This document shows, piece by piece, positions 474-63,808 of a stretch of 64,000 bases of DNA (the stretch's first letter is position 1; each line of letters starts with the position of its first letter). The stretch comes from Acanthopagrus schlegelii (taxonomy: Eukaryota). The DNA is taken from contig CM085480.1 of NCBI GenBank assembly GCA_041753875.1, positions 5,799,958 to 5,863,957 on the forward strand, given 5' to 3'. The translations under genes were made by a program, and so were the position numbers. The notes under the pieces are model-generated. The model was not told where the DNA came from, ran no database searches, and saw only the letters and a list, made by a program, of their open reading frames with translations.

Positions 474-630
474 GTACTGGAGAAAAGATGAGCCTAATAA
501 TGGTGGTGGAAATCCCCTGTGGGGTGAGGAGGACTGTGTACACATCAGATCTGGTGTGAATGCCAAAAACAGCTGGAATGATCTGCAGTGTGATACGTCT
601 CTGAAGTGGATCTGTGCCAAAATGTCATGA
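474..630 (+). CDS. Gene A (5' part lies upstream of the window): terminal CRD exon of a C-type lectin. It reads (V)YWRKDEPNNGGGNPLWGEEDCVHIRSGVNAKNSWNDLQCDTSLKWICAKMS*, with EPN and WND motifs.
   Basis: The acceptor is ctgacag|GTACTGG. The frame runs to TGA at 628-630. It is paralogous to exon 6 of genes B to E. C-type lectin hallmarks are present (EPN, GEEDC, WND, C-x-K-W-IC). Confidence 0.8.
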
Positions 631-1763
631 GTTTTGAAAGGACTTTCTTTCTTTTTTTCACGGAAAAGCTGAAATTGATTTGCTTGTTATTAATGTGAAC
701 TAGCTAAATTTAGCATTTGTACCCCTTATTCTATCATAAAGATTGGCTTTTAATAGGGAGATAGTAATAATAATAAAGTTGCTTGATCTCTTATCAGAAA
801 GGTCTGCATGTCATGTGTTGTGGAAATTCTACTTTGTGAGGTTGAGAGTTGCTAAGTCTCCGAAGAACATCAGACTTCAGCGTATGAATCAGATCTCTTT
901 AATAACATGCAGCGTGGAGAGAAGTTAAAAGCGTTCTCTCTCTAACTCTAAAATGTTATTGCTTAAGTACAGAAACAGAGAGGAGGTTACCTTCATTTAC
1001 AACAGCCATAAAACTTTTTCTTTACATAACAAAGACTCTTTGCTGTTTGGGTGTATCCTGTCCTTCCCAGGATAGTGACTCTTTGATGCAACAGATGGGA
1101 CAGCAAATGTCATCTTATCTACATTTCTGTATCTTCCCATGTAGGGGATGTGCCCCCACCTGTAGCTCTCTGACACCTCAATCAACATGACATTCTCCCC
1201 TCCTCCTCTCACATCCTCCTCTGACATCAGTCAATATGCCATTCTTTTCACCAAACAGTACAAAAATCCAACCAAAATCAATGGATCAGTGTAGATTTCA
1301 CTACTAGTTGGTGATCAACAGGCTCAGCACCTCAGAATTTGAGGCTACTCTCAAAATTCCAAAAGACATATTGGATATTTACTCTGGATATTTAATATGG
1401 TTGTTAATGTCCACATTATTAAACATCATGGCCAGGCATCTTTTTTAATTTCAACATAACCCTGTTGGAAATGTGTCACACAAGAAATATAATACAGCAA
1501 AATGACTTTCTTTATTTTATTGCCTCAGGTGACAACTATTCAACTTTAATGGAACAAAATAATTTAACATAACTTAATTAACTAGGTGCAGGTCCCTGTG
1601 AGGTGGGATAAACAAGAGGGTGACACACTGCAGATACTGCTCTGGGGACAGACCTTCACCCTCACCACCTGAGGAGACAGCAAACAAGACCGGCAGGGTG
1701 GGTTATACAGCAACGCAACGCAAAAAATAAGCTGAACCCAACACAACCACACACACGCATAGC

Positions 1764-2451
1764 CTACTTACGTGTCCCTGTCTTCAAGCGCAAGTTAAAT
1801 CCTTGAACATCTGATGCAATGCCACACTTCACATTGGCTCTTGCACAGGAGCATCCTCGGGCACACATGCTTTTCTTGCAGCGGCAGTATTTGCTACGTT
1901 TGAGTTCAGAAGGTTTTGCCTCTTTCAGCATCATGGTTGCCACCAATTTGCCATTGATATGTTGTCTCCCAAAATCAGTGGCAGTTGGTTAGGTTAGCTG
2001 AACCATGTGTGCTCGCTTACACACAGCCAACTGATGCTGGGCTCGGCAAAGGTGCGATAGGAAGGCATCTTCAGTTGGTGGAAGGCAACGCATCTTTCCT
2101 TTGATGCTCACAAAGAGAGGGGCTCGCAGTGCATCTACAGTACCACCAAAGTCACTCCTGTCATAGAGTGACACCATGTATCGCCGTGCAGCTGTTATAA
2201 CCTCCTCCTGAACATTCAGGCTTTCCTCAGGGTCACCGTACCTGCACAGCAGCAGAAGGTCTGTCAGTTGTGTAGACCTGCCTTTTTCCTCTTCTGTACA
2301 GATAGCTCACTGTGTCACATCCAGTAAGTATGTAGGTGCTGAGGAGAAGGCATATAAGATCTGAAGCTGTAACATCATACTTCCCCGCCAGAGTTTCAAG
2401 GATGGCATGAGCAGGTAGCAAGATATCCATCGTCTTCACCCACAGCTTCAA
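1764..2451 (-). pseudogene. Frameshifted ORF fragment of unknown, probably TE-derived, protein with a C-terminal tesmin/TSO1-like CXC motif (CRCKKSMCARGCSCARANVKC)
   Basis: Three consecutive minus-strand ORFs at 2451-2233, 2177-1989 and 1946-1764. The reading frame is restored by a one-nucleotide shift between the first two. The CxCKKSxC....CxC pattern resembles a CXC domain. Confidence 0.35.
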
Positions 2452-2815
2452 TCTACTGAATAAAGCTAATCTGTTGGGGAGGCATGGGCAGCTCAGAACA
2501 AGTCACTTCCTGCAGGATGCACACTTATTCTTGGTGGAATCTTTTGTGATCCTGGTCGCACTGTCCTCTTGTCAGCGGATTGTCAGGTTGAGCTCTCAGA
2601 ACTTTCCTATGAGAAACATGAGGAGGCAGATACCAGGATGTTTGCTCACATTGCATACTGTAAATTATGCACCACAAATGGGCTGTAGTGGTTGCGACAG
2701 ACTCAGATGTGATCATGATGTGCATGTACTGCATCACACACATGGATGGGCTGCAGGAGCTGTGAGAGAAGACGATGGATATCTTCCTACCTGTCCATAC
2801 CATCACAGAAGCTCT

Positions 2816-2841
2816 TGTGTGCGTGTGTGTGTGTGTGTGTT
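2816..2841. repeat. (GT)13 microsatellite
   Basis: Direct reading. It produces the HTHTHT artifact in ORF 2525-3067. Confidence 0.9.
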
Positions 2842-4502
2842 TGAAATCAAAGCAAAATAGAACCTCCACAGCAACATTCCATTCCGGACCTATATTAAGG
2901 GCAAGTTCACAGGACAACAATTCTTCAGTCTGATTTTCCATCGAACGCAGACACAGCCGTGTTATTGTGAGAAAGAAAAGTGAGGAACGACGTGACGATA
3001 TCTGTTTATCAGAGACAGCATTTTTCTGAGACAGAATAGCCAAACGAAATGGGAAAGACTTATCCAAGAGCTCAAAGACACCAAAGAGCAGCTGAGGAAG
3101 CAGAAATCCTTGAAGGGAATGTATCTCAACAGGGGGAAAGGGACCACCAGAGAGCTGGAGCGGCTGAGAAAGTACAGCGATGAGTTAACTCTCCGCAATG
3201 CAAAGATAGCTACTCAGGTGAGGGACAACACCAGGCAGAAGGATGTTATAAAGATTACGAGGAGCTGAAGGTTGCCCATTTAATTAACAAGGAGAAGTTT
3301 CAAGCTGACCTCCAGGCAGAGAGGCATGCGTCTGTTCATGATACATGCATACCAAATGTCATTCATGTATGCATGTAGGAAGGGGAGCTTGGATTTTTAA
3401 AACACCTTTGATCAGTTATCCTCAGGAGGGCATTGGCAATAATTGTACAGTTTCGTGTTAATCTTACCTACCAATGTGGAGATATAAAATACTGCAATTT
3501 AAAGAGCGCTACCTTGTGGTCATCGCCCAAAATTTTGCACAGAGTCTCAGGGGCTCATGGGGAAGTAGTCACCTGAGTTTCATGTCATTCAGACCCACCA
3601 ATGTGGAGATATGCAACACTTCCACTTTGGAACAAAATCTGCAGGAAGTTGTTATTTAATGACTTGAGTATTGTTTGGAATCTCAAAATTATTTTAATAA
3701 CTTTTTGTCAGGAGGGTCAATAGATACTGTGTGTAAAGTTTGGTGCAAATCGGTGAAATCGCCTGAGAGGAGTTGGAAAAAGTAGGTTTGCGAAGTTTTG
3801 CGAATTTGCTGAAAAAAATGGCAGGCAGAAATGGGCGTGGCTTATATCATGAGATTAAGCACAATTCAGTGAATGTATGGATATAAAGCTTTTGAATGTG
3901 TGACAAAGTATAAGAATTATAAGCCAAAACACACTTTCCTTGATTATAGTGCCACCTAATGGTGGAAATTACGGATGGCAATAGATTATGAAATTTTCTG
4001 GCAGGTGTGACGTTTATTCAAAGTTTAGTGAGTTTTGGGGCATGTTCAGGCAGTGAAAAATGCAGACAAAAAATCGACACTGCAAAAACAAAAGGGCCCG
4101 AGCAGGTCTCGACCTGCGAGGTCCCTGTAAAGATGGGTTTTTAATATAAAAATGGGTTCTAGAGGTTCAGCACACATTAATTCACTCCTGTTTTGAGGTA
4201 GTTTAAAGTCAGCGATCCAACATGAAATATTCCATTAATTCATCCTGAAATATATATGCAATGTATCGCAACCATTTCAAGGTTTTAGAAAAGGTTCAAT
4301 TGAAAAGGACCACAGACAGTCGCGTGCCATTACACAGATGTGGAACTTAAAGGTATTGAGCTGGTGGTGGATGTTTCCTGTGCAAGCTATTTTGTCACCT
4401 CTAAAAACTGATGACTTCCTGAAAACCGTGAGAGACGTTGAATCCACCATCATCATATACATGCGCTGACCGTTTAGGAGAGAGCTGGTTACCTTTTGAG
4501 CG

Positions 4503-4572
4503 ATGGAGGAGATCTATGCAAATGTTGATTACAACAAGCCTGTCGACCCAACACCTTCAACAAATCAGACAG
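4503..4572 (+). CDS. Gene B exon 1: cytoplasmic tail MEEIYANVDYNKPVDPTPSTNQT, exits in phase 1
   Basis: ATG at 4503, followed by the donor cag|GTAAGA. The same exon recurs at 18584, 36572 and 50700. Confidence 0.75.
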
Positions 4573-4666
4573 GTAAGAATGCTCACTCACACACATGGGT
4601 TGTGCATATTGATGTTGTGTATTATCCTGTGTTATGATCATGATATCATGTCCTCTCTGTGTTCAG

Positions 4667-4768
4667 GTCCCAGGAGCTCAGAGAGCAGGCTTCATGGAGC
4701 CGTGGTTCTCTGTCTGGGGCTGCTCAGTGTTGTCCTGCTGGTTGGACTCATCAGCCTCGGTGTCACCT
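4667..4768 (+). CDS. Gene B exon 2: signal-anchor/TM segment GPRSSESRLHGAVVLCLGLLSVVLLVGLISLGVT
   Basis: Acceptor tgttcag|GTCC and donor cct|GTGAGT. It is 102 nt long and keeps the phase. The hydrophobic stretch fits a type II membrane anchor. Confidence 0.8.
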
Positions 4769-5178
4769 GTGAGTCTGTTTTTCATCAGTCAGTGTCGGGG
4801 TGAACTTGTGAGAGATGCTCGTGTCTTTATGAATATGATTTTACAGCCATGGTAAATATATTCCAGCAGCTAACGCAGCAAAATGACATATTTGAACATC
4901 TGTGGATGATGAAGAGATGAACCATGTTTGAATTCAGGTGCAGGTTGCTCAGTATTTAGATATTTGCTGGGGAAACATCAGAGCATATTATTATAAAGAC
5001 TGTACATCACTGTTTGGACTTCAAATTCATTTCAGCCCTCAGGTTGATATTTCATAGACTGCATGAGCAGAATGAACATCTTCCTCTGTCAGGACAAATT
5101 AGGATGATTTTGACTCAAATATAGAACCTTTAGTCAGTATTGGTATCAATGCATGAGTGAATCTTGATTTAATTTCAG

Positions 5179-5304
5179 ACCGGGATTTAGCTGCAGAACA
5201 CTCCACTGTCAAAGCCAACCTGACGGAGCGTCTCCAGGCCAGTAATGACAAGCTGTCCTCAGTATCCAAAGAGCTGGACAGACTTCAGAGTTTGTCCAAA
5301 CAGA
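5179..5304 (+). CDS. Gene B exon 3: coiled-coil neck (Y)RDLAAEHSTVKANLTERLQASNDKLSSVSKELDRLQSLSKQ
   Basis: Acceptor aatttcag|AC and donor caga|GTGAGT. It is 126 nt long and phase-consistent. The sequence has a heptad-like leucine pattern. Confidence 0.8.
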
Positions 5305-5894
5305 GTGAGTGCTCGCCTGCCTGTGTGTGTTCTGCACAGCTGTCTGTTAACATGAAGGACAGGAGCTGCCACGGCCTCATTTATAGAACACCTATATACA
5401 GAGACTGTGCTGATCAGACACTCTCACTTCTGTCAGTTACATTTATGGCCGGTTTGACTTGTACCAATAACTTTATTTATTTTTTAATTCCTTCAAGCAG
5501 GAATATATATATAAGTTAAAGCACCTTTTTACTTGGATATCTTAACAAGTTCCAGATTATAGTGTTTTTTTTAATGCTATGTCTTCAGTGTGGCCACTGA
5601 CTCTGTGACAGGATCCTTCCTCAGCTTCACACTTTCACTTCCCTATAAGGTTGTGAACCACCTAATGAAAGTGCAGCCTTTTCTAGGGTGGAATACAATA
5701 TTTTTCGCTCTATGAAGATTGTTCCTTTTTTTCGAGCAATTAAAAAAAATGATCTAGTCAATTACAAGCTTTGTGATTAATTAATCAAAATCAATCACAT
5801 ATGGAGCCGATATTTTAACCTTCAGTCCTCCGGTTGTATACAAATTCATAATTGCACAAAACATTGCTCCTGTAAATAGTTCCATGGGCATTTT

Positions 5895-6300
5895 AATGCA
5901 GCACCACTCCATTGTGGTTTGGTATTAATATCCATGCTAAACTTTTCAAATGCATTCATTCCTGTAGTAGTCTATTCTTTATAGTACATACATTCTAAAT
6001 GTCTATTTTTATTCCAGTGTCATAAAGAGGCCGTCTTTGTAGCAGGAATATTGGTCAGGTCGAAGCATTTATGTGTGCAGCGTTTGAGTCCGGGACAAAT
6101 TTCATCAGGGGGGACAGCAGAGTGTATTGTCATCTTCATTGACATCATTCAGCAGGAAAATTATTCTTGAAATTAAACGTGCAAATAACAACAGAAACAG
6201 CTGACAGGCCCTTACACAAAAAGTGAAGACATAAATTAAAGCGGACATCTGCTGCGACAATTTCTTATATACAGGCCACTCATTTAAAGAAAAAAATGAA
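5895..6300. repeat. Interspersed repeat family (about 400-450 bp)
   Basis: A homologous copy lies at 34840-35290. It differs from this one, so it is not a tandem-duplication duplicate. A fragment lies at 16960-17010. Copy-2 duplicates lie at 37965-38370 and 49090-49140. Confidence 0.55.
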
Positions 6301-7819
6301 ATAATAGATGTCTACCAAACTGAGATAAAAGCAGTCCATGGTTATGTTTTCTAACTTTAGCCGCTATATACATGTAATAAACATGCAAATGAATAGAACA
6401 CTCTTTTAAAGGTCCCATATTATACTGTTTTTCATGTATTTCACACAGCTGTCAGAGGTCCAACAACACTGTATTCGATATGCATTGCCCCAAACCATCC
6501 ATAGTCCTGAATTTCAGCTGTCTAAAAGTCCCTCAATTGAGCTCTACTGAATGCAGGCTGTTCAGGCTGCAGGCTAATGAGCTCTGTCTTGCCTGTTACA
6601 CACCCCTCTCCGGGGGAGGATGACGCTTGCGCTACCGGTAGCATGCACTTGTGTTTTGCAGTGGATGTATGGCTATGGCTCGCGGTGATGCTTTTGTTCA
6701 ACCATACCAGTTTGACCCAGAACTGGACCCAGAAGGAGAGGCTCCTGAGGAAGTACAGACCTTGTGGCTGCAGCAGGATGTTTCAGAATGGTTAGTGTGT
6801 CTGAATGATGTTAGTTTGTTCATATGTATTACAATTACTGCCATGTAGCTAATGGCTAACAGCTAGTGAAAGCTGTGTTTGTCTCCAACACAGTCTCTAA
6901 ACTCTTGGACACTGTTAGCATCGTCTCTGTCTCCAGTCTGCACGTTTCCAGATTTTTTACTGTGACAACCAAGCTCCATCATGAAATTATTAATATTAAA
7001 CTCACTTGAAACACAATTGCATTGTGGACCAAAGCAGAGCTAACGATTAACTAACCAAGTTCCAGCTGACCTCACCACTCGTAGGTAACTGTAAACACTA
7101 TCAAACCGCAGCGACACTTACCTGTGGCTCAGGTGCAGTTGCTGGGTCCGGTATGGTTGGGACTGATCTTTGTGCGAGGGTCAGTGTCGAGGCAAAGCCA
7201 GCTTTGTACTGACACTCGTTACTGAAGCTGTCTGATGTTAAGTGGTTAGCACACACACACAAACTAACACAACCCGTAGCCGGCACGTTGTCGTTAAAAA
7301 ATGAAACGCAACCACTGTCTCCTCTGTTGTTCTGTAGCTGGGACAGAATATAGGCACTGATGTTGATTTTTACAACCAACAATAGAGTAATTTGCGTGTC
7401 TAACTCTGAGCGACGACATTGCGAAACATTGCTATCTTACAGCTGGACACACCGAACTTCACCTTGGGGATGGACGCCCCCCTCTCGGATATCTACTATC
7501 ATTGTGCAGAGGAAGCCTGTCTATGTAAATGGCTACTTTCATTACGTAATGAAAGGAGCTGAATCTCAACAGACTGTAGGAGCGCTGTTTTACCAGTGGG
7601 TGGGCTGCAGAGACCATGCAGGAATCTGGTTTTACCAGTGGGTGGGCTGCAGAGACCATGCAGGACTCGTTTGCTTTCCTCATTCTGGGAGTTGGCAGGC
7701 TCAGGGAGGACCAGCTTATATATGTAGACACCAGAGAAAATGTGTTTTTCATAATATGGGACCTTTAAATGAACGTCAGGCCACTTCTTTGCATTTCAAA
7801 GTCACATGCGTAAAATAAA

Positions 7820-7970
7820 GTTGGATTCTGGAGGTTCCCCACACATTCATTCACTCCTGTTTTGAGGTAGTTTAAAGTCAATGATCCAACATGAAATAAT
7901 CCATTCATTCCTCCTAAAATCAAATCTATATCATCCAACTATTTCAAGGTTTTAGGTTTTATTTTTCGTA
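7820..7970. repeat. Short interspersed element (about 150 bp, SINE/MITE-like) with core CACACATTCATTCACTCCTGTTTTGAGGTAGTTTAAAGTCA
   Basis: The same about 150-bp sequence occurs at 4150-4300 and 39888-40038. A partial copy lies at 36250-36345. The two partial copies sit at the left edges of the duplicated segments. Confidence 0.6.
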
Positions 7971-8369
7971 TTCATTTTTACCTTCGAAGGTGTTAGTTAA
8001 GGTTTGGGTTTTTAGGAAGAAAGAAAACAGCCTTGTAGAATGAACATGTTTTTACAGTTCAAACGGGGAAAGAGGTGGGACCAACTCTTCAACACATCTT
8101 AATGACGTAACAATGCGCAAATCTTCAGTAGAGATCAATACCTTCCATTTCAAAGATTTAAAGGTTTTTGTTACATAAAAAAGATTCTGATTTTGATGAG
8201 TTATTTTGTTCCATTATGATTAAAGCAAATATAAATTAGTAGTGAATATCAGTTTGAACATCAGATAACAACAGTTTCATCCAAAGAACATACACTTAAT
8301 CCACAACCTCCCAAGCTGAGCAACATGGACCTTGTCTGATCTTTAACGTCACTTTGATGCTTTTTCCAG

Positions 8370-8512
8370 AGAGAACTTGTCCTGCAGGATGGCAGATGTT
8401 CAGTTGCACCTGCTATCTCTTCTCCACTAAGACTGATTCTTGGGAAAATGGCAGACAAGACTGCAGAGACAGAGGAGCAGAGCTGGTGACCATTGACACT
8501 GATGAAGAACAG
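8370..8512 (+). CDS. Gene B exon 4: CRD exon 1 (K)RTCPAGWQMFSCTCYLFSTKTDSWENGRQDCRDRGAELVTIDTDEEQ
   Basis: Acceptor ttccag|AG and donor aacag|GTAGTG. It is 143 nt long and ends in phase 0. The CPxGW start and Cys pattern mark a C-type lectin-like domain. Confidence 0.85.
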
Positions 8513-10667
8513 GTAGTGAGGAGTTTTTCCTTACAGAGCCTCGATAGATTGTAAAGTCCTCTGAGACAAATTTGTGACTTGTAAATAAAATTGACTCCTA
8601 CATGCCTTCTTACCTTCCTACATACTTTATGCGCACCTCCGTTTTTGCCCCCCAAAAAAGTAAAGGAACAAATTACTGAGAGACAGAGAGATCACACAAC
8701 ATTAATCAGAAACAGTCAGCGAGCCTGGCAGGAGTTGAGCCACTTGACAGAACGCACAAAAGTGAGATTCTTATGGTGAGTGCACATGAGGACAAGATGG
8801 GCAGCTCCCTCCAGCCAATGTCTCTGTTCTTGGAGGGCGAAAACAACGGCCCTTTGCCAATGTTGCAGGGGTCATGAGAGGAAAGCACAGGCAGGAAGCT
8901 TTTGTTCATTGCTGTGACAGGACGGCTCCTGCTCCGGTGTCAGAGGAGTCAACCTCTGGATCCAAATATTGATACCAACGTTGGTGTTGACTTTGCTCCT
9001 CCTACCCCCTCTTCTGTTTTGATGTTCTGTACTGTCACATGACTCAGCAGCACTAGGCAAACAAGCAGACAGAGCAGAAGAATGGCAGAGAGGAAGAGGA
9101 GCACCACGTGGCTATATTTTCAGGCCGTAAATGAAGCAACTGCAAGCTGTATAATTTGCAAAAAGGCTGTAAGATAAAGTAGTAACACAAGAAGGGCTAC
9201 AGAAACAGAGCCCAGGCCCCCGACCCAGAGGCAGAGGTCATTGGCAGAGGCCTTTCAGTCTGGCAGAGAATATAGTGGTGAAAGTAGTATTTTAGTCATC
9301 TTTGGGATTAGTTAATATTAATTTTCAAAGTGAAACTGGTCTGGTCTTGTATAAATTATGCTAAGACCTTGATATAATAGATTTATCCCATTAAAACACA
9401 TTTAAATGAATACATTTACTGGAATTGAAACAAATATAGTGAATATAATATGAGTCAGATTTGATTGAGTAAAATTTGCCTTTTGTGTTAACTGTGTATG
9501 CTTACTATAATCAAACTTCAAGTGGATGTTTTTCACACTTTATTATTTTATCATTTCACTTAGCTGATTCCCCAAGAGTTTCCGAACACTCTCCCTACAA
9601 AAAATAACACACAGAGGAGCCTGCTGTGCACCAGCAGACTTGTAACCACGGTAACGGAGGATGCCAGATAACCAAGATGTCACATTCAAATAACAACAAC
9701 TTAATCCCTGATTGTTCTATTTCTAGTACCACTAAATTTAAATGACGAGTGCCTCATGCAGATCACTGTAGTAACCCGAGTAACAAACAATATTCCTCAC
9801 ATTGCGGTAGACAGAGTTACCGTGAAATCATTATCCAGTGCAATGTGGAAATGTTAATTCTTTAAACCAATTCAACCACTTCAGAGCGTCCTGAACACAA
9901 ACTAATGTTATAACCACCCAGTCACTTGAAAGGCACTTTTGCTAACCAGTAGCCATAAAGACAGAGCTAAACACTGGAGTTAGTATACAAGCTAACAAGT
10001 TAGATTTACCATCAAGCTTCGGAGCTCGACTGCAACAGGGGTCCTTACTTGTCCAGCAGAAAAGCCACTAACTCTGCGCTGCTCTTGAGTCCTTACAAAT
10101 CCCACAGTTCCCTCCACCTCTGAAATGACGCTCCGATATTTATCCTTGTTTTCTCTGTGGCTCAGTCCAATTCTGTCCTTTTACACTGCTTTTCTTCCTC
10201 AGTCTTCTCATTTCTTCTCTTTGACATGGGCAGTGGTGGGGCATTGTTCAGCTCTGTTGTTGTTGTCTGTTCTCCACCATTATTTACAGTTTAGGCTTGA
10301 ACTTATCTGACCAGGGTGAGAGCAGGCATGGTGCCTGCTTGGGGGAGGGGTACAGCCCAGTACATGCTGCATGAGGGAGGGGGGCTGCCAGCAGCATGCA
10401 CATGAGTGATTGATACTTCTCAGCCACTCCCCTTAGCTGTGATTGGTTGTACTGAGCCATAGCACAATATAACATCTGCAAATCAAATTGGGGCCACTGG
10501 GTGGAGCCACAGACAGTGGATTTGTGCACAGCTGACCTGTATCTTATTCAGGTGCTCATAAAAGTTTGATATGAATGTTATTGTATTGCTCAGATGAATC
10601 CCTATTAAATGTAATATGGTTCAGAATTAACTGGAAATAATGGCTTTATTTCCTTTACTTCGGACAG

Positions 10668-10771
10668 GAATTCATCTCTAAAATCATCAAGGAAGATACT
10701 TGGATTGGTTTGAATGACAGAGACAAGGAGGGGACCTGGAGATGGATAGATGGAACTCCGCCAACTGTGGT
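10668..10771 (+). CDS. Gene B exon 5: CRD exon 2 EFISKIIKEDTWIGLNDRDKEGTWRWIDGTPPTV(V)
   Basis: Acceptor cggacag|GAATTC and donor gtggt|GTAAGG. It is 104 nt long. The WIGL and WxWxDG motifs are present. Confidence 0.85.
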
Positions 10772-10875
10772 GTAAGGCAAACAGTAGCAGACTCTACATT
10801 ACTAGAGTCATTTCTGTCTGATTGAACAATTGTTATCAGAATCCGACTGACTCACTTCCTTTAATAACCTCCTAG

Positions 10876-11032
10876 GTACTGGTTTGAAACACAGCCTGAT
10901 AATGGTGGTGGAAACCCAAAGTGGGGCGAAGAGGACTGTATACACCTCATATTTGGTGAGAATGCCAAAAGGAACTGGAATGATCTGCGATGTGACAAGT
11001 CTCTGAAGTGGATCTGTGCCAAAATGCCTTAG
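10876..11032 (+). CDS. Gene B exon 6: CRD exon 3 YWFETQPDNGGGNPKWGEEDCIHLIFGENAKRNWNDLRCDKSLKWICAKMP*, with QPD and WND
   Basis: Acceptor cctcctag|GTACTGG, with TAG at 11030-11032. The frame is continuous with exon 5. Confidence 0.85.
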
Positions 11033-11186
11033 TTTTGAAACAAAGCAATGACAATGAAAGTGAGATGATTATGAAAATGTCAGAGAGAGAAAGAGTAGAC
11101 AACATGTTTAGGGGTGTTATTGAGCATTTAGCATGTGTATACCTTATTCTATCATAAAGACAGGCTGTTAATAGGAGGATAATAAT

Positions 11187-11192
11187 AATAAA
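11187..11192 (+). promoter_or_regulatory. AATAAA polyadenylation signal in the gene B 3'UTR
   Basis: A second AATAAA lies at 11251-11256. A conserved 3'UTR block with AATAAA is shared with gene A at 772-777 and gene C at 31922-31927. Confidence 0.5.
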
Positions 11193-13785: not shown

Positions 13786-13836
13786 TATATTGATATATAT
13801 ATATATCTATATATATATATTGATATATATATATAT

Positions 13837-55165: not shown

Positions 55166-58100
55166 AGGATAAATATTGGTTAAATCCCCATCACTTGGGA
55201 TGCAGTGGAGGAGTGCAGACTGTGTTGGTGAGCTCTCGGTGGTGGAACCTATCATTTGCTTTTATCCAGATTTAACCTCACACATCTTTGGTTTATCTGC
55301 AAGAGGCGAAGCCAATAAGAGCACTTTTATATGGCAAGCTACAATTTTCGGCATACAAAGCGAAAGAAAGCTGCAACTCAAATTTCACGGTACCTGCACG
55401 CTGTAACCATAAGAAACATGGCGGACGGGGAAAAACAAATATCCTTCAGCAAATTTCTCGATGCTATTCAAGAAACTAAAAACGACCTCACAAAACATTT
55501 TGACAAGAAAACAGCATACAAACAACGTTAACGAAAATCGAGTCCTCACTCTCTACGCTGGCGGAACATGTCAAGGAGATGCACACACGAGTGAGTACGA
55601 CAACGAAGACGATATCAAAGATACCCACGACCGTGTTGCTGAAATGGAGAAACTGATAACACACCTCAAAGACAAAACTGACAATTTAGGAAACCGCAGC
55701 AGGAGGTCTAACATTGGATAGTAAATGTTCCGGAACAAGCAGTGGGTCGTCATACCATAGGATTTTTGAAAAGGTTTATACTGCAAGTCCTGGGTAACGA
55801 TCACCTCACCTGTTACACTGGAAAGAGCGCACTGCATGGGGAAAAAGTTGGACAGACTGCAGCCCCTCATCACCAAATTCCTGAACTTCAGAAGTAAAGG
55901 AGAGATGACATAGAGAACAAAAGAATATTCTTTTACCCAGATTATAGCGCAAACCTGCAGCGTAGGAGAGACGTGAAGCGGACGCTGCGAGAGAAGGTGG
56001 TGGAATACGCTCTGATCTACCCAGCCCAGCTTCACATCAAACATCTGGGAACCGTCAAGTTTTTCTCCATTCCAGCCCAAGTGCAACGTTTTTTGAAAGA
56101 ACTCCCAAGTGAGTAGCCTGACCAAAGTTACCGTTATAGACACTGATGAGGAAGAAAGGAGGAAAACAAAGGACTACAATCTGACTACACTACAAGACTT
56201 GGCTATGAAAAGGTACAAAATCAAATCTCCAACGTAGGAAGGCAAAACGGCTATGAAACAATATTACGCTAATATTACGCAGGCTAAGCTGTGAAAAATT
56301 AACAAACAAAATATCATTCCAATAGAGGAAAGAAAAGGCTATAAACTTAACTGCAAGACTGAGCTGTACTATAAAATGATTAACAAAAAATCACTCTCTA
56401 AGAAGCAAAAGAAAATACAGAATTACTGACAAGGAAAGACAAGGGTTGTGGTGAAAGTATATATACTATAAAATTAAAATACATGAGGGTGATGGGGAAC
56501 AGGTGGACACAATCAGGAATTGGGGAGACGTTCAGACTGGTGACACATGAGGAAGGGCAAGTGACCTGAAATGAGTTGCTTTTCAAAATAAAACAGGAAG
56601 TTCACGAGAAAAAAACAAAGACAAACCTCACCGCTGTGTGACACCCACAAGGCAAAACAAATTAGAAAGAGACTAACCAAATTGGAAAGAGATATTAAAA
56701 AGCAGGGAACAGGATTACATTGCCACCAAAAAGGAAGAACACCTTAATGCACTAACAAAAACAAGGATTCAATATAATAATGTACTAACAAAGAGGAAGC
56801 AGCTATGCCCAGCACTAGATATCACTATTATGAATTTGGGAACAAAACAAGTAAACTCTTGGCTTGGCAAATTAAAAAGGAAACACCTGATAACTGTAGA
56901 CACTCAATATTAACAGAGGGGGGCAGACTCCTTGATAATTCACTATCCATAAATGCAGAATTCAAACAATTTTACAAAGATTTATATAAAACTGGGCAGG
57001 ATGCTGATAATATTGGAGCAAAAAGGTTCATGGATGGAATAACCCTTCCCAAATTACAAGATGAGGGCAGAGATCTGCTTGATGCAGATATATCAAAAAT
57101 GGATATACTCCAAGCAACAATCACACTGCTACCAAAACCGGGTAAGGACAAACAGAAATGTGACTCATACAGACTCCTCAGCCTCTTAAATGCAGATTAT
57201 AAGATACAATCCAAACTAATTGCTCTAACACACACTGACGAAACAGGCTTTGTTACAAACAGGCACGGAGCAGATATTGTGCAGCGACTGCTCCACATAC
57301 TGAACACTGCTCAAAAAATATCAAAATCCTATGCTAATGATGTCTATGGATCCAAAGCATTTGACAGGATTGGACCAAGCTTTCTATTTCAGACTCTAGA
57401 GGCTATGGGCTTTGGAGAGAAATTCACTCATTCACTCATTCACTCTGTTTAATGCCCCCAAAGCTAATATTTTAACAAATGACATTGTACCTATCACTTT
57501 CTCATTATCCAGAGGGTGCTGGTAAGGCTGTCCAAGCTCCCCCCTGCTCTTTGCACTTGCAATTGAACCGTTAACCATCGGCATCCACTCCAACACCCCC
57601 ATAACCGGAATTTATTTGGCACAAATAAACAAACTTTCTCTGTATGCAGATGATCTCCTATTATATATAACTGATCCACACACATCAGTCCCCCCTCTAT
57701 TGAAATGCCTCAAAGAATATAGTGCAGTTTCAGGGTATAAATTCAATGACACTAATAGCGAGATTTAACCACTAAATATACAAGACAACAGTATTAGAGC
57801 TCTCACTGACCCACTGAAATGGCGCAACATTGGTTCCAAATATTTGGGTATACAAATTGGTAAATTGGTTGAGCATATATTTAAAAAGAACTACATAAAA
57901 TTATTGGAACAAACCAAACTTAACCTTCAAAGACTGATTGATCTCCCACTGTCTCTCATAGGCAGAATTAATACTATAAAAATGAACATTTTGCCCAAGT
58001 TTATTTACCTATTTCAGTGTCCCCCACTGAATGTTCCCAAGAGTTTCTTCAAAGAGCTTAACAAAATTATACTCCTTTTATATTGCAAAGGAAAAACCCA

Positions 58101-59131
58101 AAGTTTAAACACATCTCTCTACAGGCTCCATATTCAAGATGACGACTTAATCTACCAAATTTTAGGAATTATTATCTTGCTTCATAGTACCCATCAATCT
58201 GGATCTGGCTGCATGCAGAGAACAGTGAGGTTAGATGGGTCCCAATAGAACAACACAAGATGAAGTCTATGCCTCTAAAGGATATTCCATTCTTAGGTAC
58301 AAAAAAATGTTTAGCCACACTCACGAACAATTCAATAATACTGAACAAATTTTCTACTTGGCAATAATCTCACTCACTTCTTGACACAAATATTTCTTTT
58401 CTTAGAAGGGCCTCTTTGTGGGTAATCCCAACCTCTCACACCACATAGCTGAGTCAATGTTGCGGGGGTGGAGGGACATAGAAATCCAAACAGTTGCTGA
58501 TTTATACATTAATGATTCATTTACTAATTTCCAAAAACTAAATGAAAATTTCAACCTTCCCAAAGTTAGTTTCTTCAAATTCCTACAAATTAGAGACTGG
58601 GTTAAGGAGAAATCCAAAGAAACATTCCCATATATCCCAAAAGAATCTCCTCTTGAAACCCACCTAACAAATTACACAGATCAACAAAAGGAAAAAAATA
58701 TATATATGGTATCATCAGTGGAAAGTTGCCTTTTTATGATTATTTTAATTATTATTTTAATGACTATTGGAACAGGCACAGACTGTACTAACCTCCACAA
58801 AACACAGGCAAATTCAATTCAAATGATTCCATAGGCCATACTACACCCCTTACAGTTTACATATACATTTGTGTATGTTTCTATTGTAAAATCCAACTTT
58901 CAGTGTATCAAACTGTAGATGCTTGCTATACACCATAAACATCAGCTCTTCTGGAGCTACTGTTGATAAAAACAAATCTTACAAAAAAAAAAAAATCTCC
59001 ATCACTTAAGTTTTTCGTGTTCTGATTCTGTTAAATGGGCCTCTGGTAAGAAAGCTACGTCCACCCCCTCCCTCTTCAATTTTGTCATAACCTTGCTCCT
59101 TCTGATGGGATTTTCAAACCATTGACATTGT
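55165..59131 (+). mobile_element. L1-like LINE on the plus strand, the copy-2 duplicate of 23050-27065
   Basis: ORF1 ATG at 55418. RT ORFs at 56805-57452 and 57844-58248. Confidence 0.8.
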
Positions 59132-60360
59132 ACGTGATTATTTTAGTTGACTTCATACCTTATATTTAGTTTTGTTGTTTTAAGCCCCTGTACGCCTGTA
59201 ACTGAGTCATATCTTACACCCCTGGTGCTGTAAAGAATGATACCACAAACCATAAGGGAAACAAAACTGTTAACCTGCATCACATCACAATCAATAACAT
59301 TGTCATCCAAAATTAAGGCCTCTTTGATGGCCTCCTGGCTCTGATGGAATGTGAGTCCGACCACAAAACCTGTCCTCCATAAGCCCTTACTCTCATCTTG
59401 CTGATGCAATCAATGTCATGTACAGGAATATGTTTGATACTAGAATGTCCAAAAAATTATTCACTGCACTGTAAAAGATAACTAAAGAATGCTATAACTA
59501 TATGAATGTCATTTTTGAATTTGATTGATCTTGGCGGGGCATCCATCGGAGGATTTGAGGCGAGTGCCCGGTGCGCTCTCTTGATAATTAGCGCTGCAGA
59601 GGGAGGGAGCTCCTGGCCCTTCAACAGTAAATCTTCCACCAAAGTAATCACCAATGTCATATTTTTTTCAGCTCCTTCTTTTACCCATGTATTCTGACAT
59701 TGTCATGACATGAGGGCCCCTCTATATCAGTCAACTTAGCCTCCGTTTGTACATGAAGCGTCACCAGCTCCGATAAAACATCCTCTGCTGACTGGATTCA
59801 GGTCTCGGCTGCTTTGATTCATTTCTCTGCTTCTTCCATAATGTTACGACCCTCTAAAAAAAAGACAGCTCGTCCACAGAAGGCCCCACATAATTAATCA
59901 GTCAGGAAAATCCCAATAATTAACCAATTTATTTATAGTGCAAGCCACATTCCTTCCTCTTTTAAGTCTTCCCCTCAGTTATCAAATAAGGGCCACCTGG
60001 GAGAAAGCACAACACAACAAACAAAATGGTCAACAGAATCTCTGGTTATACCTTTCCCATCCAGCAGGGGGGGAGTATGTAAATGTTGTTGTCAATATCC
60101 TCTCGCATGCTGTTTACTTAGCAGTCCTTCCTGAATTCTCTTAGTTCTTTCAGTATTACATCCAGGTTAGCCTTTCGTGTTTGTCCCGACTCTGCGTCGG
60201 TCTGCATACTGGTCTCCATCCTGCTAATGCTGCTAACTTGCAGCGGATGACCTTCTCTTCGTCATCGTGTTTCTTACTTTGTGCGGGTATTTCTTCCCCT
60301 TTCTGATGGGCATGCTCTATCAAATGTTTTTTTTTTGTTGTTGACTATACTGCTGTTTTT
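59132..60360 (-). mobile_element. L1-like ORF1 fragment on the minus strand, the copy-2 duplicate of 27066-28300
   Basis: ORFs 59143-59409 and 59457-59660 on the minus strand. Confidence 0.6.
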
Positions 60361-60853
60361 ATTCATGCTTGTTGTTTATTGATTGTTTTTGTACTTGAAG
60401 TAAGGCAACCTTGAGTGCCATGACAGGCACCATCAAATAAAATGTATTATTATTATTATTATTATTATAGTCATTCGCCCATTATAACTCAGCTTGCTTT
60501 GACATTACTTTAATAAATCTGAGTTTATCAGACGTTAAATATTGCTGTAGGGAGCCTGCTGCCTAAGCTGCCATTATGTCACCCGCAAGAACGGAAGTCC
60601 TCAGCATAAAGATTTAACAATGTGCAAATATTGAGAGGAGATCAATAGCTTCAGTTTCTAAGATTGAAGTTATTGTCATTGAAAAATATTCTGATTTTTA
60701 TGAGTTATTTTGTTCCATTCTGATTTAAGTAAATATAAATATATACTGAATATCAATTAGCACATCAGTTAACAACATTTTCCACAACCTCCCAAGCTGG
60801 ACAACATGGACGTTGTCTGATTTTGAATGTTACTTTTTTGATGCTTTTTCTAG

Positions 60854-60996
60854 ACAGAACTTGTCCTGCAGGATGGAAGATGTTCAGTTGCACCTGCTAT
60901 CTCTTCTCCACTGAGACTGATTCTTGGGAAAATGGCAGACAAGACTGCAGAGACAGAGGAGCAGAGCTGGTGACCATTGACACTGATGAAAAACAG
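60854..60996 (+). CDS. Gene E exon 4: CRD exon 1 (N)RTCPAGWKMFSCTCYLFSTETDSWENGRQDCRDRGAELVTIDTDEKQ
   Basis: Acceptor tttctag|AC and donor aacag|GTAGTG, 143 nt long. Confidence 0.8.
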
Positions 60997-61274
60997 GTAG
61001 TGAGGAGTTTTTCCTTATATTGCTTAGATTGTGGAGTCCCCTGAGACAAATGTTTGATGTAAATAAAACTGACCCCTGCATGCCTTCTTACCTTCCTAAA
61101 TACTTTATGTGCACCTCAGTTTTTGCCCCCCATAAAAGTAAGGGAACAAATAACTGAGAGACAGAGAGATCACAAGGACATTAATAAGAAACAAAGCCCA
61201 GCAAACCTGGCAGGAGTTCATCCACTTGACCTAACACAGATAGGCGAGAGTGTGATGGTCAGTCCATGCGAGGA

Positions 61275-62325
61275 CATTATTCCTCCTGACTCTGGGAGAA
61301 GATGAGAATATGATCTAAATAAGTGAACACAAACCAGTTGTCACTGAGAACATCGTTGACCAAGGCCTGGAAGACAACAGGGGAATTGGTGCGACCAAAA
61401 GTCATGACTTGGTACTCTAAATGGCCGAGAGGATCGTCTACTAATTTCCTTCTCGTATGTGCACCCACTGATAAGCATTTCCAGGATGGCAGCCTGGTGG
61501 AGAGGTCCAAACGCTGAGTTGATGATAGGGAGGGGGTATTTGTTTTTGACTGTTGTTTCATTCATACCTTTGTAGTCGATGGCCTTATAGATCCATCTTT
61601 TTTTAGCCACATCAAAAAAGGAAGAGGGGCGAATGAGTCTGGTGGGTATGTAAGCTGTTGATATGAGTCTCCTTTGCATCTTGTTTAGGGCGGGTAAGGT
61701 TGTAAAGACAGCTTGTAGGAAGAGTAGCACCAGGAAGTAGGTCAATCTAAGAGTTATATGGTCTGTGAGAGTGCATGGCCCTTGCTAAATATGTCGCTAG
61801 GGTTGTGATAGTTGGAGGGAACAGAGGAAAGGTCATTGTGTTCAGGGGTGGCAGGAGTGGAGTGGTAGCAGGAGGGGGCAGCAGAGTGAAGGCATGGGAA
61901 TGACAAAATACACTCCATGTGATGATTCTTGAAGCTGACCAATCAATATGGGTGTTGTGCATCTAAAGCCACAGGAGACCTAAGACAACTGGGGAGTGAG
62001 GTGAAGGGCTTACAACAAAATGTATTGTCTCTCTATGAAAATGGAAAGAATGGAAAGAAGGAGAGTGGGTGGAACAGTACAATGAGTGATTTGAGCAGGT
62101 AATCTACCACCAAGTGCAAAAACAAAACCTTAGGAGAGGGAAGAGTCTCAGTGGGAATGTTAGCTTGGCAGACAAAGTCAGAGTCAATTACGTTATTGTC
62201 AGTACCCGAGTCAGTCAGTACCTGAAGTGGGAGAGTCTGTAGCTTGAGGCGAGAGGGCGTAGAGGAGGTAGGAGTCAATCGGCTCATCAGCGCCCCGCTG
62301 TTGTGTGATGACACTGGTCTTTTAT
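61275..62325 (-). mobile_element. Gypsy-type pol fragment, the copy-2 duplicate of 29250-30300
   Basis: ORFs 61277-61561, 61341-61745 and 62033-62314 on the minus strand encode the same sequences. Confidence 0.8.
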
Positions 62326-63433
62326 GCAGCTATGCGCAGAGGAAGATGGCATGAATCAATCAAATTCCTTTATTGTCCCGCATGGTGCATTGCGGCGGTG
62401 TTCGGTCTCCGCTTGGTAACAGATTGTTAATGTGGGGTTGAACCCAGAGGCAGTAGGACAGTTCAAAGTCAACATTCTCTGGCCTAGTTCATGAGCCATG
62501 AACAAAACAAGAGAGACACAAGGTGTAAACTGCAAAACTGAACCAAGTTATTAGCAAAGTAACCAAACGATACTTAAAGTCCTGATCTGACCTAAACAGG
62601 CCGACGCCAACTAAACAAAAAAAAGGTGCTCTTAAACAGGAAAGCCAAAAACAAGAGAGCTAAAAGCAGAAGAGAGGGCATCTCAAACACAGCCAGGTCA
62701 TAAATACTCCTGGGAGGACTGATCAGGTGCTCCCAGGGGTGTTGATTATCACACCAGGAACCTGCAGGACAACAGACAAACATGAGGGAAAACACACACA
62801 CCCACACACAGCAGGCCCTGCTAAAGCATGCGGGCCATCACACCATAAGGAATGGAACAAGCTGGCACAGGAGCAGTGAAGAGACAGGGTTAATACAGCA
62901 GGGGTTGATGAGATGATGACATGCAGGCGTGTCCCTCAGCTGCAGCAGGCACAAGTCAGTGGACACAGACTCACACTAGGGAGGAGCAGGTGATGGAGGA
63001 AGGAGGGGGAGCAAACAGATGTTATCAAATAACTAGCCCACATGGTAATCGTATGACTTCAGACTAACCAGAACGAAGCATTTTACGACACTCTGTTATA
63101 CACGTTACTATACATTGATCAATGTAAAAAGTTGTAAAATGAGAGTTAGAATAGTTTGTCACTAAATACGGATTGGTGATAAAAGTGTCTCCGTGTTCGA
63201 TGTGATGAAGTTTGGTTTCATTTGGTCTCATTTGGACACTTGTTAGCAACTGACTTTCTAAGACATGTAAACACTTATAAATCAAATGTAAAGTAAAAAT
63301 ATTTATTATATTCTGTTGTACTCATAAAAGTTTGAAGTGAATGTTACTGTACTGTTCAGATGAATCCATATTAAATTTGATATGGTTCAGAATTAAATAG
63401 AAACAATGGCATTATTTCCTTTACCTTGAACAG

Positions 63434-63540
63434 GAGTTGATCTCTAAATTCATCAAGGAAGATACTTGGATTGGTTTGAATGACAAAGACGAGGAGGGGA
63501 CCTGGAGATGGATAGATGGAACTCCATCACCGACTGTGGT
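63434..63540 (+). CDS. Gene E exon 5: CRD exon 2 ELISKFIKEDTWIGLNDKDEEGTWRWIDGTPSPTV(V)
   Basis: Homolog of 31315-31421. Confidence 0.8.
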
Positions 63541-63651
63541 GTAAGGCAAAGAGAAGATGTTCAACACCTGATTTCAATATTGACACATATACAATGTTTG
63601 AATAATAGTTATCAGAATCAGACTGACTCACTTCCTTTAATAACCTCCTAG

Positions 63652-63808
63652 GTACTGGTTGGAAAAACAGCCTGATAATGGTGGTCGAAGCCAAAAGTGG
63701 GGCGAAGAGGACTGTATACACCTCGTATTTGGTGTGAATGTCAAAAAAAACTGGAATGATGTGCGGTGTGATAAGCCTTTGAAGTGGATCTGTGCCAAAA
63801 TGCCTTAG
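63652..63808 (+). CDS. Gene E exon 6, intact: YWLEKQPDNGGRSQKWGEEDCIHLVFGVNVKKNWNDVRCDKPLKWICAKMP*
   Basis: The frame is continuous to TAG at 63806-63808. It has no homopolymer frameshift, unlike gene C. Confidence 0.8.

What the first reader, a model, noticed from the sequence alone, without database searches (positions are those of the whole stretch)
474..63808. Paralogs differ in the predicted sugar-specificity motif: EPN in gene A versus QPD in genes B to E
Gene A's terminal exon reads KDEPNNGGG...NSWNDLQC, with EPN and WND. The four complete genes read ETQPDNGGG...NWNDLRC, with QPD and WND. In C-type lectin CRDs the EPN tripeptide with WND coordinates Ca2+ and selects mannose, GlcNAc or fucose-type equatorial 3,4-OH. 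QPD selects galactose or GalNAc. The cluster thus appears to have diversified ligand specificity among adjacent paralogs.
Basis: partly seen in the sequence, partly recalled or inferred. Interest (0 to 1): 0.7.

Follow-up and report, generated by a model that had tools for sequence, protein, structure and literature searches.

The report
Seabream lectin-receptor array, EPN versus QPD
This is a tandem array of already-annotated black seabream immune sugar-receptor genes in which one gene carries the mannose-type EPN motif and its neighbours the galactose-type QPD motif: real and correctly placed, but ordinary for this fast-evolving fish gene family.

Summary
The window is Acanthopagrus schlegelii DNA holding a tandem array of type II membrane C-type lectin genes that GenBank already annotates (KAM8749958 onward). 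Gene A's last exon (474-630) encodes EPN and WND. Genes B and D encode ETQPDNGGG...NWNDLRC. Two details are wrong. Gene C has an A10 run (A9 in E) that shifts the frame just before WND. Gene E reads EKQPDNGGR...NWNDVRC. B/C and D/E are two copies of a ~32 kb repeat, so there are about three distinct QPD domains, not four.

Alignment with verified DC-SIGN, Mincle and ASGPR sequences, plus AlphaFold models, puts the tripeptides at the canonical Ca2+ site 2 in the long loop. All five Ca2+ ligands are present. Gene A is a complete gene (KAM8749958.1, 247 aa).

Across 117 related fish domains, QPD is the majority (88) and EPN (14) recurs in several lineages, so motif switching is common here. The literature already notes QPD in fish Mincle-like receptors. 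A mannose-type versus galactose-type preference is a sound prediction but untested, and a teleost EPN lectin is reported to be inhibited by both sugars.

Verdict: new members of a known kind, low to moderate interest.

The parts
474..630 (+). Gene A, terminal (6th) exon with stop codon. EPN codons at 490-498, WND at 574-582. The rest of the gene lies upstream of the window. Paralogy to B-E runs from 472 to about 816 (exon plus proximal 3'UTR).
   Evidence: The C-terminus is identical to KAM8749958.1 / P0134, a 247-aa 'CD209 antigen-like protein C' of A. schlegelii.
4503..11032 (+). Gene B (233 aa). Exons 4503-4572, 4667-4768, 5179-5304, 8370-8512, 10668-10771, 10876-11032. QPD at 10892-10900, WND at 10976-10984.
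   Evidence: all introns GT-AG, and the product is identical to P0011 = KAM8749959.1. Pfam Lectin_C E = 3.5e-24.
18584..31690 (+). Gene C. Exons 18584-18653, 18748-18849, 19259-19426, 28830-28972, 31315-31421, and 31533-31641 as read (premature stop). With one A removed, the exon runs to the stop at about 31690 and gives 248 aa. QPD at 31549-31557.
   Evidence: The frame-corrected product is identical to KAM8749963.1 / P0131.
31623..31632 (+). A10 homopolymer in gene C's last exon (A9 in gene E). The extra A shifts the frame just before WND.
36572..43100 (+). Gene D (233 aa), repeat copy of B with an identical CRD. Exons 36572-36641, 36736-36837, 37247-37372, 40438-40580, 42736-42839, 42944-43100. 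QPD at 42960-42968, WND at 43044-43052.
   Evidence: product identical to P0012 = KAM8749960.1 / KAM8749964.1. B and D differ at 40 of 6777 nt, two of them in exons.
50700..63808 (+). Gene E (248 aa), repeat copy of C. Exons 50700-50769, 50864-50965, 51375-51542, 60854-60996, 63434-63540, 63652-63808. QPD at 63668-63676, WND at 63752-63760. The loop reads EKQPDNGGRSQKW.
   Evidence: The nearest annotated product is KAM8749965.1 (P0016), differing at one residue.
31547..31574 (+). 28-nt stretch of gene C encoding the loop around and after QPD. It holds 6 of the 12 C-versus-E differences found in 1188 nt (GGGDAK versus GGRSQK). The counterpart in E is about 63666-63693.
   Evidence: Clustering P = 1.4e-7 for a fixed window, 1.6e-4 after Bonferroni correction.
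4324..31793 (+). Unit 1 of a ~32 kb tandem duplication (genes B and C). It matches 36393-63911 (genes D and E) at 96.7-99% identity.
4423..5380 (+). 5' block of gene B (5' flank, exons 1-3, introns 1-2). It is 98-100% identical to gene C's 5' block, introns included, apart from a 42-nt indel in exon 3. Downstream the two genes fall to 70-87% identity. This is an inferred gene-conversion or recombination tract.

Best explanation
The window holds part of a tandem array of group II C-type lectin receptor genes of black seabream. These are type II membrane proteins: a short cytoplasmic tail with a conserved MEEIYxNV motif, one transmembrane helix, a coiled-coil neck and a C-terminal long-form CRD.

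Every CRD keeps the full canonical Ca2+ site 2: E/Q-P-N/D, the Glu of EEDC, and the N and D of WND. It also keeps the auxiliary site residues. These proteins are therefore expected to bind sugars through a Ca2+-coordinated pair of vicinal hydroxyls.

Gene A carries EPN, which predicts equatorial 3,4-OH sugars (Man, Glc, GlcNAc, Fuc). Genes B, D and E, and C if its frame is intact, carry QPD, which predicts Gal/GalNAc type. The switch takes two single-base changes (GAG CCT AAT versus CAG CCT GAT).

The array grows by segmental duplication: a 32 kb unit with one B-type and one C/E-type gene, at least two copies here and more in the annotated assembly. The 5' halves of the genes are kept nearly identical, probably by gene conversion. 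Exons 5 and 6, which encode the sugar-binding face, stay divergent.

Shown: gene structures, motif positions, duplication structure and family distribution. Inferred: the sugar preference, the gene conversion, and an immune pattern-recognition role.
For: - Identity and annotation: (KAM8749958-66).
- Gene models with GT-AG introns and exact matches to annotated proteins.
- Lectin_C domain.
- Canonical motif placement against PDB-verified DC-SIGN, Mincle and ASGPR.
- Family invariants in 75 sequences (P189, E201, C203, W216, N217, D218, with N191, D202, D164 and E168 near-invariant).
- AlphaFold models with CRD pLDDT above 90, the motif in the loop between beta2 (158-163) and beta3 (203-206), and WND on beta4.
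- Foldseek best hits are SRCL, Mincle, DC-SIGN(R), MGL and ASGPR CRDs at TM 0.85-0.89 and 1.7-2.5 A.
- 32 kb duplication.
- Mosaic identity: A versus B is 145/147 in exons 1-4 but 25/35 and 35/51 in exons 5 and 6. B versus C DNA is 98-100% and then 70-87%.
- The EPN/QPD rule is from PMC9630629.
- Expanded, tandemly clustered DC-SIGN/Mincle-like group II genes in fish are described in PMC514892.
Against: - No binding data exist for these proteins.
- A teleost EPN/WYD DC-SIGN-like CRD was inhibited by both mannose and galactose (PMC11084180), so the rule may be leaky in fish.
- The QPD genes do not have Trp at the ASGPR-aligned QPD+2 position. Their loop Trp is 7 residues after D and is shared with EPN gene A, so high-affinity Gal binding is not assured.
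- Gene C is frameshifted in this sequence.
- Gene E's product matches no annotated protein exactly, so copy content may vary between assemblies or haplotypes.
- Expression of individual copies was not tested.
Confidence: 0.8

Rival explanations
1. The motif difference is real but has little functional effect. These teleost CRDs bind broadly (mannose, galactose, LPS, PGN). Effective specificity is set by the hypervariable residues flanking the Ca2+ site and by oligomer geometry, not by EPN versus QPD.
For: - PMC11084180 reports an EPN-type teleost CRD inhibited by both D-mannose and D-galactose.
- Family variability peaks at residues 185-187 and 207-214, which flank the site.
- C and E differ almost only in the loop after QPD.
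- The loop Trp and Gly-rich segment are the same in the EPN and QPD genes.
Against: The EPN/QPD rule rests on structure and mutagenesis in many CTLDs (PMC9630629; the MBP-A EPN-to-QPD switch is from established knowledge). All five Ca2+ ligands are intact. Agglutination-inhibition at 250 mM sugar is a crude assay.
Confidence: 0.25
2. Much of the apparent paralog diversity is not functional. Gene C is a pseudogene. Some near-identical copies may be assembly duplications or unexpressed. On this reading the locus offers only two or three working CRD types.
For: - The A10 frameshift removes WND and two cysteines from C.
- B and D CRDs are identical.
- Units are 97-99% identical.
- Window gene E matches no annotated protein exactly, whereas B, D, the A exon and the frame-corrected C do.
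Against: - The GenBank annotation lists at least four B-type and at least five C/E-type products with distinct sequences, so several copies are real in at least one assembly.
- The intact C-type protein exists (KAM8749963.1).
- A 1-nt homopolymer difference is a common sequencing error.
- Copies differ by scattered substitutions, not by none.
Confidence: 0.3
3. Gene A's EPN exon is an orphan relic rather than part of a working gene.
For: - Only the last exon lies in the window.
- No exon 5 or intron 5 homology exists upstream within the window, nor within 1.9 kb upstream in the A. latus contig L001. That intron is only about 100 bp in B-E.
- The exon differs from A. latus at about the flanking rate, with 2 of 3 changes nonsynonymous.
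Against: - KAM8749958.1 (A. schlegelii) and XP_036965343.1 (A. latus RefSeq) are full-length 247-aa models ending in exactly this exon.
- The reading frame, the AG acceptor with its polypyrimidine tract, all cysteines and all Ca2+ ligands are intact.
Confidence: 0.05

Closest known systems
Teleost 'DC-SIGN subgroup' of group II CTLD receptors (Fugu DC-SIGN-F1 to F8, with F2-F5 in a tandem cluster; Zelensky & Gready 2004, PMC514892)
   Same: Type II membrane proteins with one long-form CRD. They are over-represented and tandemly duplicated in fish, have no one-to-one mammalian ortholog, and most retain the Ca2+/carbohydrate-binding residues.
   Different: These are sparid-specific copies that form their own clade. 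The array here is built from a 32 kb two-gene unit, and its 5' halves are homogenised.
Fish 'Mincle-like' receptors with non-EPN motifs (Lates calcarifer QPD, Lutjanus peru EPD; discussed in PMC11929736)
   Same: Same family. L. calcarifer proteins P0002 and P0003 are 64-65% identical to the gene B CRD and carry QPDNGGRDLRWGEEDC. The replacement of EPN by QPD has already been noted, along with its implied change in ligand.
   Different: Here both motifs occur in adjacent genes of one array, and at about 91% identity within one species pair (P0134 or P0018 versus P0133).
Mammalian Mincle (CLEC4E) and T. rubripes Mincle (PDB 3wh2, 4kzv, 9kpl)
   Same: Best sequence and fold matches for the CRD. 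Gene A shares EPN and WND.
   Different: There is no transmembrane Arg for FcRgamma pairing. The hydrophobic-groove residues after WND (Mincle CFLNYF) are replaced by CD(K/T)SLKW. B-E have QPD. The tail carries a conserved Tyr motif. The NCBI name 'CLEC4E-like' reflects similarity, not orthology.
ASGPR H1 / MGL (CLEC10A) / SRCL, the QPD galactose-type group II receptors (PDB 1dv8, 6py1, 2ox9)
   Same: QPD and WND at Ca2+ site 2. There are 10 residues between QPD and EDC, the same loop length as ASGPR, and the loop is Gly-rich and contains a Trp. SRCL is the top Foldseek hit for the QPD model.
   Different: Trp is not at the ASGPR W243-aligned position (QPD+2) but 7 residues after D. The same loop occurs in EPN gene A, so it is a family trait rather than a galactose adaptation.
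DC-SIGN / DC-SIGNR and the mouse SIGNR cluster (CD209 family)
   Same: Type II receptor with a coiled-coil neck of variable repeat number and a C-terminal CRD. It is a tandem multigene cluster whose paralogs differ in ligand preference.
   Different: The neck units are unrelated to the 23-residue DC-SIGN repeats (here a 14-aa insert and whole-exon duplications). There are no LL or tri-acidic tail motifs. The binding loop is longer.

Membership tests
C-type lectin-like domain (Pfam PF00059), long-form CRD | Significant match to the Lectin_C profile over the whole domain | tested here: met
   Gene B CRD: E = 3.5e-24, 86 bits, profile positions 2-107 of 107. Gene A terminal exon alone: 24.9 bits, above the 22.6 cutoff.
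C-type lectin-like domain (Pfam PF00059), long-form CRD | Six canonical cysteines (three disulfides), the WIGL motif, and the double-loop fold | tested here: met
   C103, C114, C131, C203, C221 and C229 are conserved or invariant in 75 sequences. AlphaFold CRD pLDDT is above 90, with TM 0.85-0.89 to solved CRDs.
Ca2+-dependent carbohydrate-binding CRD (site 2) | All five Ca2+ ligands: E/Q and N/D of the tripeptide around a Pro, the Glu two residues before the beta3 Cys, and the N and D of WND | tested here: met
   Alignment A1 with DC-SIGN, Mincle and ASGPR and the family invariants. This holds for A, B, D and E. In C it is met only if the A10 frameshift is ignored.
Ca2+-dependent carbohydrate-binding CRD (site 2) | Measured Ca2+-dependent, EDTA-reversible sugar binding | not testable with these tools
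   Needs recombinant protein.
Group II CTLD receptors (type II membrane, neck, single CRD) | N-terminal cytoplasmic tail, single TM helix, helical neck, C-terminal CRD | tested here: met
   There is a 22-residue hydrophobic stretch (AVVLCLGLLSVVLLVGLISLGV) preceded by RSSERR. The model shows a continuous helix at 33-100 followed by the CRD.
Mincle / CLEC4E orthologs | EPN motif | tested here: not met
   B, C, D and E have QPD. Only A has EPN.
Mincle / CLEC4E orthologs | Hydrophobic groove next to the sugar site (human F198, L199, Y201, F202) and a charged TM Arg for FcRgamma | tested here: not met
   The aligned residues after WND are C-D-K/T-S-L-K-W, against C-F-L-N-Y-F in Mincle. No Arg or Lys lies within the TM stretch. 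Feature definitions are from PMC9630629 and PMC11929736.
ASGPR/MGL-type galactose receptors | QPD and WND | tested here: met
   B, D and E.
ASGPR/MGL-type galactose receptors | Trp two residues after QPD (ASGPR W243) that stacks on galactose | tested here: not met
   The aligned position is Gly. The loop Trp lies 7 residues after D. Whether it reaches the sugar in 3D was not assessed.
DC-SIGN (CD209) orthologs | 23-residue neck repeats and di-leucine / tri-acidic tail motifs | tested here: not met
   The neck is LAAEHSTVKANLTERLQASNDKLS(SVSEERDLLNANLT)SVSKELDRLQSLSKQ, and the tail is MEEIYANVDYNKPVDPTPSTNQTGPRSSERR. The comparison with DC-SIGN motifs relies on established knowledge.

The most novel reading that the evidence does not exclude
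The sparid array behaves as a germline-diversified glycan-receptor repertoire. Recombination or gene conversion keeps the signalling, TM, neck and first-CRD-exon half nearly identical among paralogs. Short cassettes on the sugar-binding face are kept or exchanged as distinct variants under diversifying selection. These cassettes are the EPN/QPD tripeptide, the 3 residues before it, the loop after it, and the beta3-beta4 segment. EPN<->QPD flips recur in at least 6 percomorph lineages. The 5-of-8-nt cluster between the otherwise ~99% identical genes C and E would then be a micro-conversion of such a cassette; the E-like GGQSQK variant is also present in Pagrus major.
Probability: 0.35. Interest if true: 0.45.

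Novelty: new member of a known kind. Interest (0 to 1): 0.25.

Why it matters
If the predicted split holds, black seabream, an aquaculture species, would carry mannose-type and galactose-type pattern-recognition receptors side by side, with nearly identical tails and necks. That makes a convenient natural experiment for how two base changes and a few loop residues retune glycan recognition. It could also provide candidate markers for disease resistance. It opens no new question: the EPN/QPD rule, tandem expansion of this receptor group in fish, and QPD in fish Mincle-like proteins are all already published.

Tried and rejected
1. Orphan-exon hypothesis for gene A. I suspected this because no exon 5 lies within the window or within 1.9 kb upstream in L001, and a 52-aa search returned only a prokaryote-style ORF. 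It was rejected when the full-length search and cluster look-up recovered XP_036965343.1 and KAM8749958.1 ending in exactly this exon. The word-indexed search was not exhaustive, so its negative result was uninformative.
2. The look-up of encoding contigs for P0011 and P0001 returned nothing. The upstream part of gene A in A. schlegelii could therefore not be read as DNA.
3. dN/dS on the 51-codon terminal exon gave 0.38-0.95 between paralog types, and 1.35 for C versus E. The sample is too small to claim positive selection, so I report it only as weak constraint.
4. Constraint on the A exon against A. latus: 3 substitutions (2 nonsynonymous) in the 139 exon bases compared (474-612), about the same rate as the flanks. 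This is uninformative.
5. Rfam scan of the window: no hits.
6. Pfam scan of ORFs of at least 150 aa: only a reverse-transcriptase fragment.
7. Fold searches do not separate the EPN model from the QPD model, so they say nothing about specificity.


Full report
[quoted passage not shown] Its cluster holds KAM8749959, 60, 62 and 64. The window is therefore black seabream nuclear DNA. GC content is about 40%.

**Gene models.** Mapping P0001 onto the window with tblastn and reading the junctions gave four six-exon genes on the + strand, all with GT-AG introns.
- B: 4503-11032, 233 aa, identical to KAM8749959.1.
- C: 18584 to about 31690.
- D: 36572-43100, 233 aa, identical to KAM8749960.1 / KAM8749964.1.
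- E: 50700-63808, 248 aa.
- Exon layout: exon 1 is the tail, exon 2 the TM segment, exon 3 the neck, and exons 4-6 the CRD.

Self-comparison shows that 4324-31793 and 36393-63911 are two copies of a ~32 kb tandem unit at 96.7-99% identity. B/D and C/E are therefore recent repeat copies. B and D differ at 40 of 6777 nt and have identical CRDs.

**Checking the observation.**
- EPN (490-498) and WND (574-582) are present in gene A's last exon. QPD and WND are present in B, D and E.
- Gene C has QPD, but an A10 run at 31623-31632 (A9 in E) shifts the frame to ...NVKKKLE*. This removes WND and the last two cysteines.
- With one A removed, C's product is identical to the annotated KAM8749963.1. The extra A is thus either a copy-specific disabling mutation or a homopolymer sequencing error.

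**Is gene A real?**
- Only its last exon (474-630) is in the window. Paralogy to B-E covers just 472-816.
- There is no exon 5 or intron 5 homology upstream. That intron is only about 100 bp in B-E.
- A metagenome contig, L001, is 96.9% identical to window 1-2840. It extends 1.5 kb further upstream and also lacks the exon.
- I first suspected an orphan exon, and a 52-aa search found no annotated protein. A control search with full-length E overturned this. It recovered A. latus XP_036965343.1 (P0018, 247 aa), which ends in exactly the L001 version of the exon.
- The cluster look-up then gave KAM8749958.1 (P0134, A. schlegelii, 247 aa), whose C-terminus is identical to the window exon. Its accession immediately precedes gene B's.
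- Gene A is therefore a complete annotated gene with a long last intron. L001-L003 are probably A. latus host DNA.

**Are the tripeptides at the sugar site?**
- In the joint alignment, the seabream EPN/QPD share columns with DC-SIGN and Mincle EPN and with ASGPR QPD. The Pro, E-D-C and W-N-D columns are invariant.
- Across 75 family members P189, E201, C203, W216, N217, D218, C221 and C229 are invariant. N191, D202, D164 and E168 (the auxiliary Ca2+ site) are at least 90% conserved.
- AlphaFold models of the QPD protein (P0001) and the EPN ortholog (P0018) have CRD pLDDT above 90. They place the tripeptide in the long loop between beta2 and beta3, and WND on beta4.
- Foldseek finds SRCL, Mincle, DC-SIGN(R), MGL and ASGPR CRDs at TM 0.85-0.89 and 1.7-2.5 A.

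**What this does and does not say about specificity.**
- The EPN/QPD rule (PMC9630629) predicts Man/Glc/GlcNAc/Fuc type for A and Gal/GalNAc type for B-E.
- The loop between the tripeptide and EDC is 10 residues long, as in ASGPR (4-5 in DC-SIGN and Mincle). It is Gly-rich and contains a Trp.
- That Trp is not at the ASGPR W243-aligned position, and the same loop occurs in EPN gene A. It is a family trait, not a galactose adaptation.
- A largemouth bass EPN/WYD CRD was inhibited by both mannose and galactose (PMC11084180).
- The predicted preference is therefore reasonable but unproven.

**Family context.**
- Of 117 related percomorph CRDs, 88 have QPD and 14 have EPN. The rest are variants such as KPD, PPD, QPN and MPN.
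- On a neighbour-joining tree with the motif columns masked, QPD is ancestral and EPN needs about 10 changes.
- Independently of the tree, 6 of the 14 EPN proteins have a non-EPN nearest relative.
- Sparid sequences form one clade with two subclades. One is QPD-only (B, C/E, S. aurata P0020). The other is mixed (gene A ortholog EPN; S. aurata P0014 QPD; S. aurata P0017 EPN).
- Gene A is 90.9% identical over its full length to an A. latus QPD paralog.
- The EPN/QPD split thus predates the species, and motif switching is common in this family.
- The literature already records the expanded, tandemly clustered DC-SIGN/Mincle-like group in Fugu (PMC514892). It also records that EPN is 'not faithfully conserved' in fish Mincle-like proteins, with QPD in Lates calcarifer (PMC11929736).

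**Pattern of divergence.**
- A and B are 145/147 identical in exons 1-4 but 25/35 and 35/51 in exons 5 and 6.
- At the DNA level, B and C are 98-100% identical over 4423-5380, introns included, and then drop to 70-87%. This points to a 5' conversion or recombination tract rather than protein-level constraint alone.
- C and E differ at 12 sites in 1188 nt. Six of them fall in 28 nt encoding the loop around QPD, GGGDAK versus GGRSQK. The clustering has P = 1.4e-7 for a fixed window and 1.6e-4 after correction.
- An E-like GGQSQK loop occurs in Pagrus major, which favours exchange of an old variant over a burst of new mutations.
- Family-wide entropy peaks at residues 185-187 and 207-214, which flank the Ca2+ site.
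- Terminal-exon dN/dS is 0.4-1.3, but from only 51 codons.

**Membership.** These are group II long-form CRD receptors.
- Not Mincle orthologs: QPD in B-E, no TM Arg, and groove residues not conserved.
- Not DC-SIGN orthologs: a different neck and different tail motifs.
- Not ASGPR/MGL orthologs: the Trp is not aligned.
- The NCBI names 'CLEC4E-like' and 'CD209-like' are similarity labels only.

**Verdict.** The genes are already annotated, and the phenomenon is known for fish group II lectins. Interest is low to moderate. The more distinctive features are the mosaic homogenisation and the loop-cassette differences between near-identical copies.

Noticed in passing
window 31547-31574 versus 63666-63693: Genes C and E are ~99% identical over 1.2 kb, yet 6 of their 12 differences (5 of them within 8 nt) fall in the loop right after QPD, GGGDAK versus GGRSQK. 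A third variant, GGRSRK, is annotated as KAM8749961.1, and an E-like GGQSQK occurs in Pagrus major. This looks like micro gene conversion of a binding-loop cassette.
   Followed up: partly
window 4423-5380 versus 18503-19460: The 5' block of B (5' flank, exons 1-3, introns 1-2) is 98-100% identical to that of C, introns included, while the rest of the two genes is 70-87% identical. At the protein level A and B are 145/147 identical in exons 1-4 but about 70% in exons 5-6. The signalling/neck half appears homogenised and the binding half kept divergent.
   Followed up: partly
window 31623-31632: An A10 homopolymer (A9 in E) frameshifts gene C just before WND. The frame-corrected protein is exactly KAM8749963.1, so this is either a copy-specific pseudogene or a homopolymer sequencing error.
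   Followed up: partly
window 1-473 and L001:1-1987: Gene A's last intron exceeds 1.9 kb and shares no homology with the ~100 bp intron 5 of B-E. Homology to the paralogs begins exactly at the AG acceptor (472). L001:734-1189 resembles window 3533-4066, a stretch between A and B.
   Followed up: partly
window 4503-4572 (exon 1 of B; likewise 18584, 36572, 50700): The cytoplasmic tail starts MEEIYANVDY. M1, I4, Y5 and N7 are at least 90% conserved across 75 percomorph homologs. It is a Tyr-based motif preceded by acidic residues (hemITAM-, ITIM- or YxxPhi-like) whose function is untested.
   Followed up: no
window 19259-19426 and 51375-51542 (neck exon 3 of C and E) versus 5179-5304 (B): C, E and A carry a 14-aa neck insert (SVSEERDLLNANLT, which adds an NLT glycosylation sequon) that B and D lack. 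In other copies the whole neck exon is duplicated: 2x in KAM8749966.1 and up to 4x in S. aurata P0014. Neck length is thus variable, as with DC-SIGN neck polymorphism.
   Followed up: no
window 24693-25340 and 56805-57452: A 215-aa ORF with a partial reverse-transcriptase domain (RVT_1, E = 1.6e-8) lies inside the 9.4 kb intron 3 of C and, as a duplicate, of E. This retroelement fragment helps explain why that intron is three times longer than in B and D.
   Followed up: partly
window 13776-14099, 45820-46270, 31730-31793, 63848-63982: Long (TA)n microsatellites lie between the B-type and C-type genes of each unit. Perfect (GA)n runs start about 40 nt after the stop codons of C and E, and their lengths differ between the two repeat units (32 versus 67.5 copies).
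   Followed up: no
window 50700-63808 (gene E product): The window's E protein is not identical to any annotated A. schlegelii protein: 1 residue from KAM8749965.1, and 3 residues from KAM8749961.1, all in the last exon. B, D, the A exon and the frame-corrected C all match exactly. This suggests a different haplotype or assembly, or a mis-assembled array.
   Followed up: no
L001, L002, L003 (ENA metagenome assemblies ERZ13706759, ERZ13706763, ERZ13706748): These 'metagenome' contigs are fish host DNA. L001 is 96.9% identical to the window, and all three encode the A. latus version of gene A's last exon. A prokaryotic gene caller annotated them as an 87-aa protein (P0009).
   Followed up: yes
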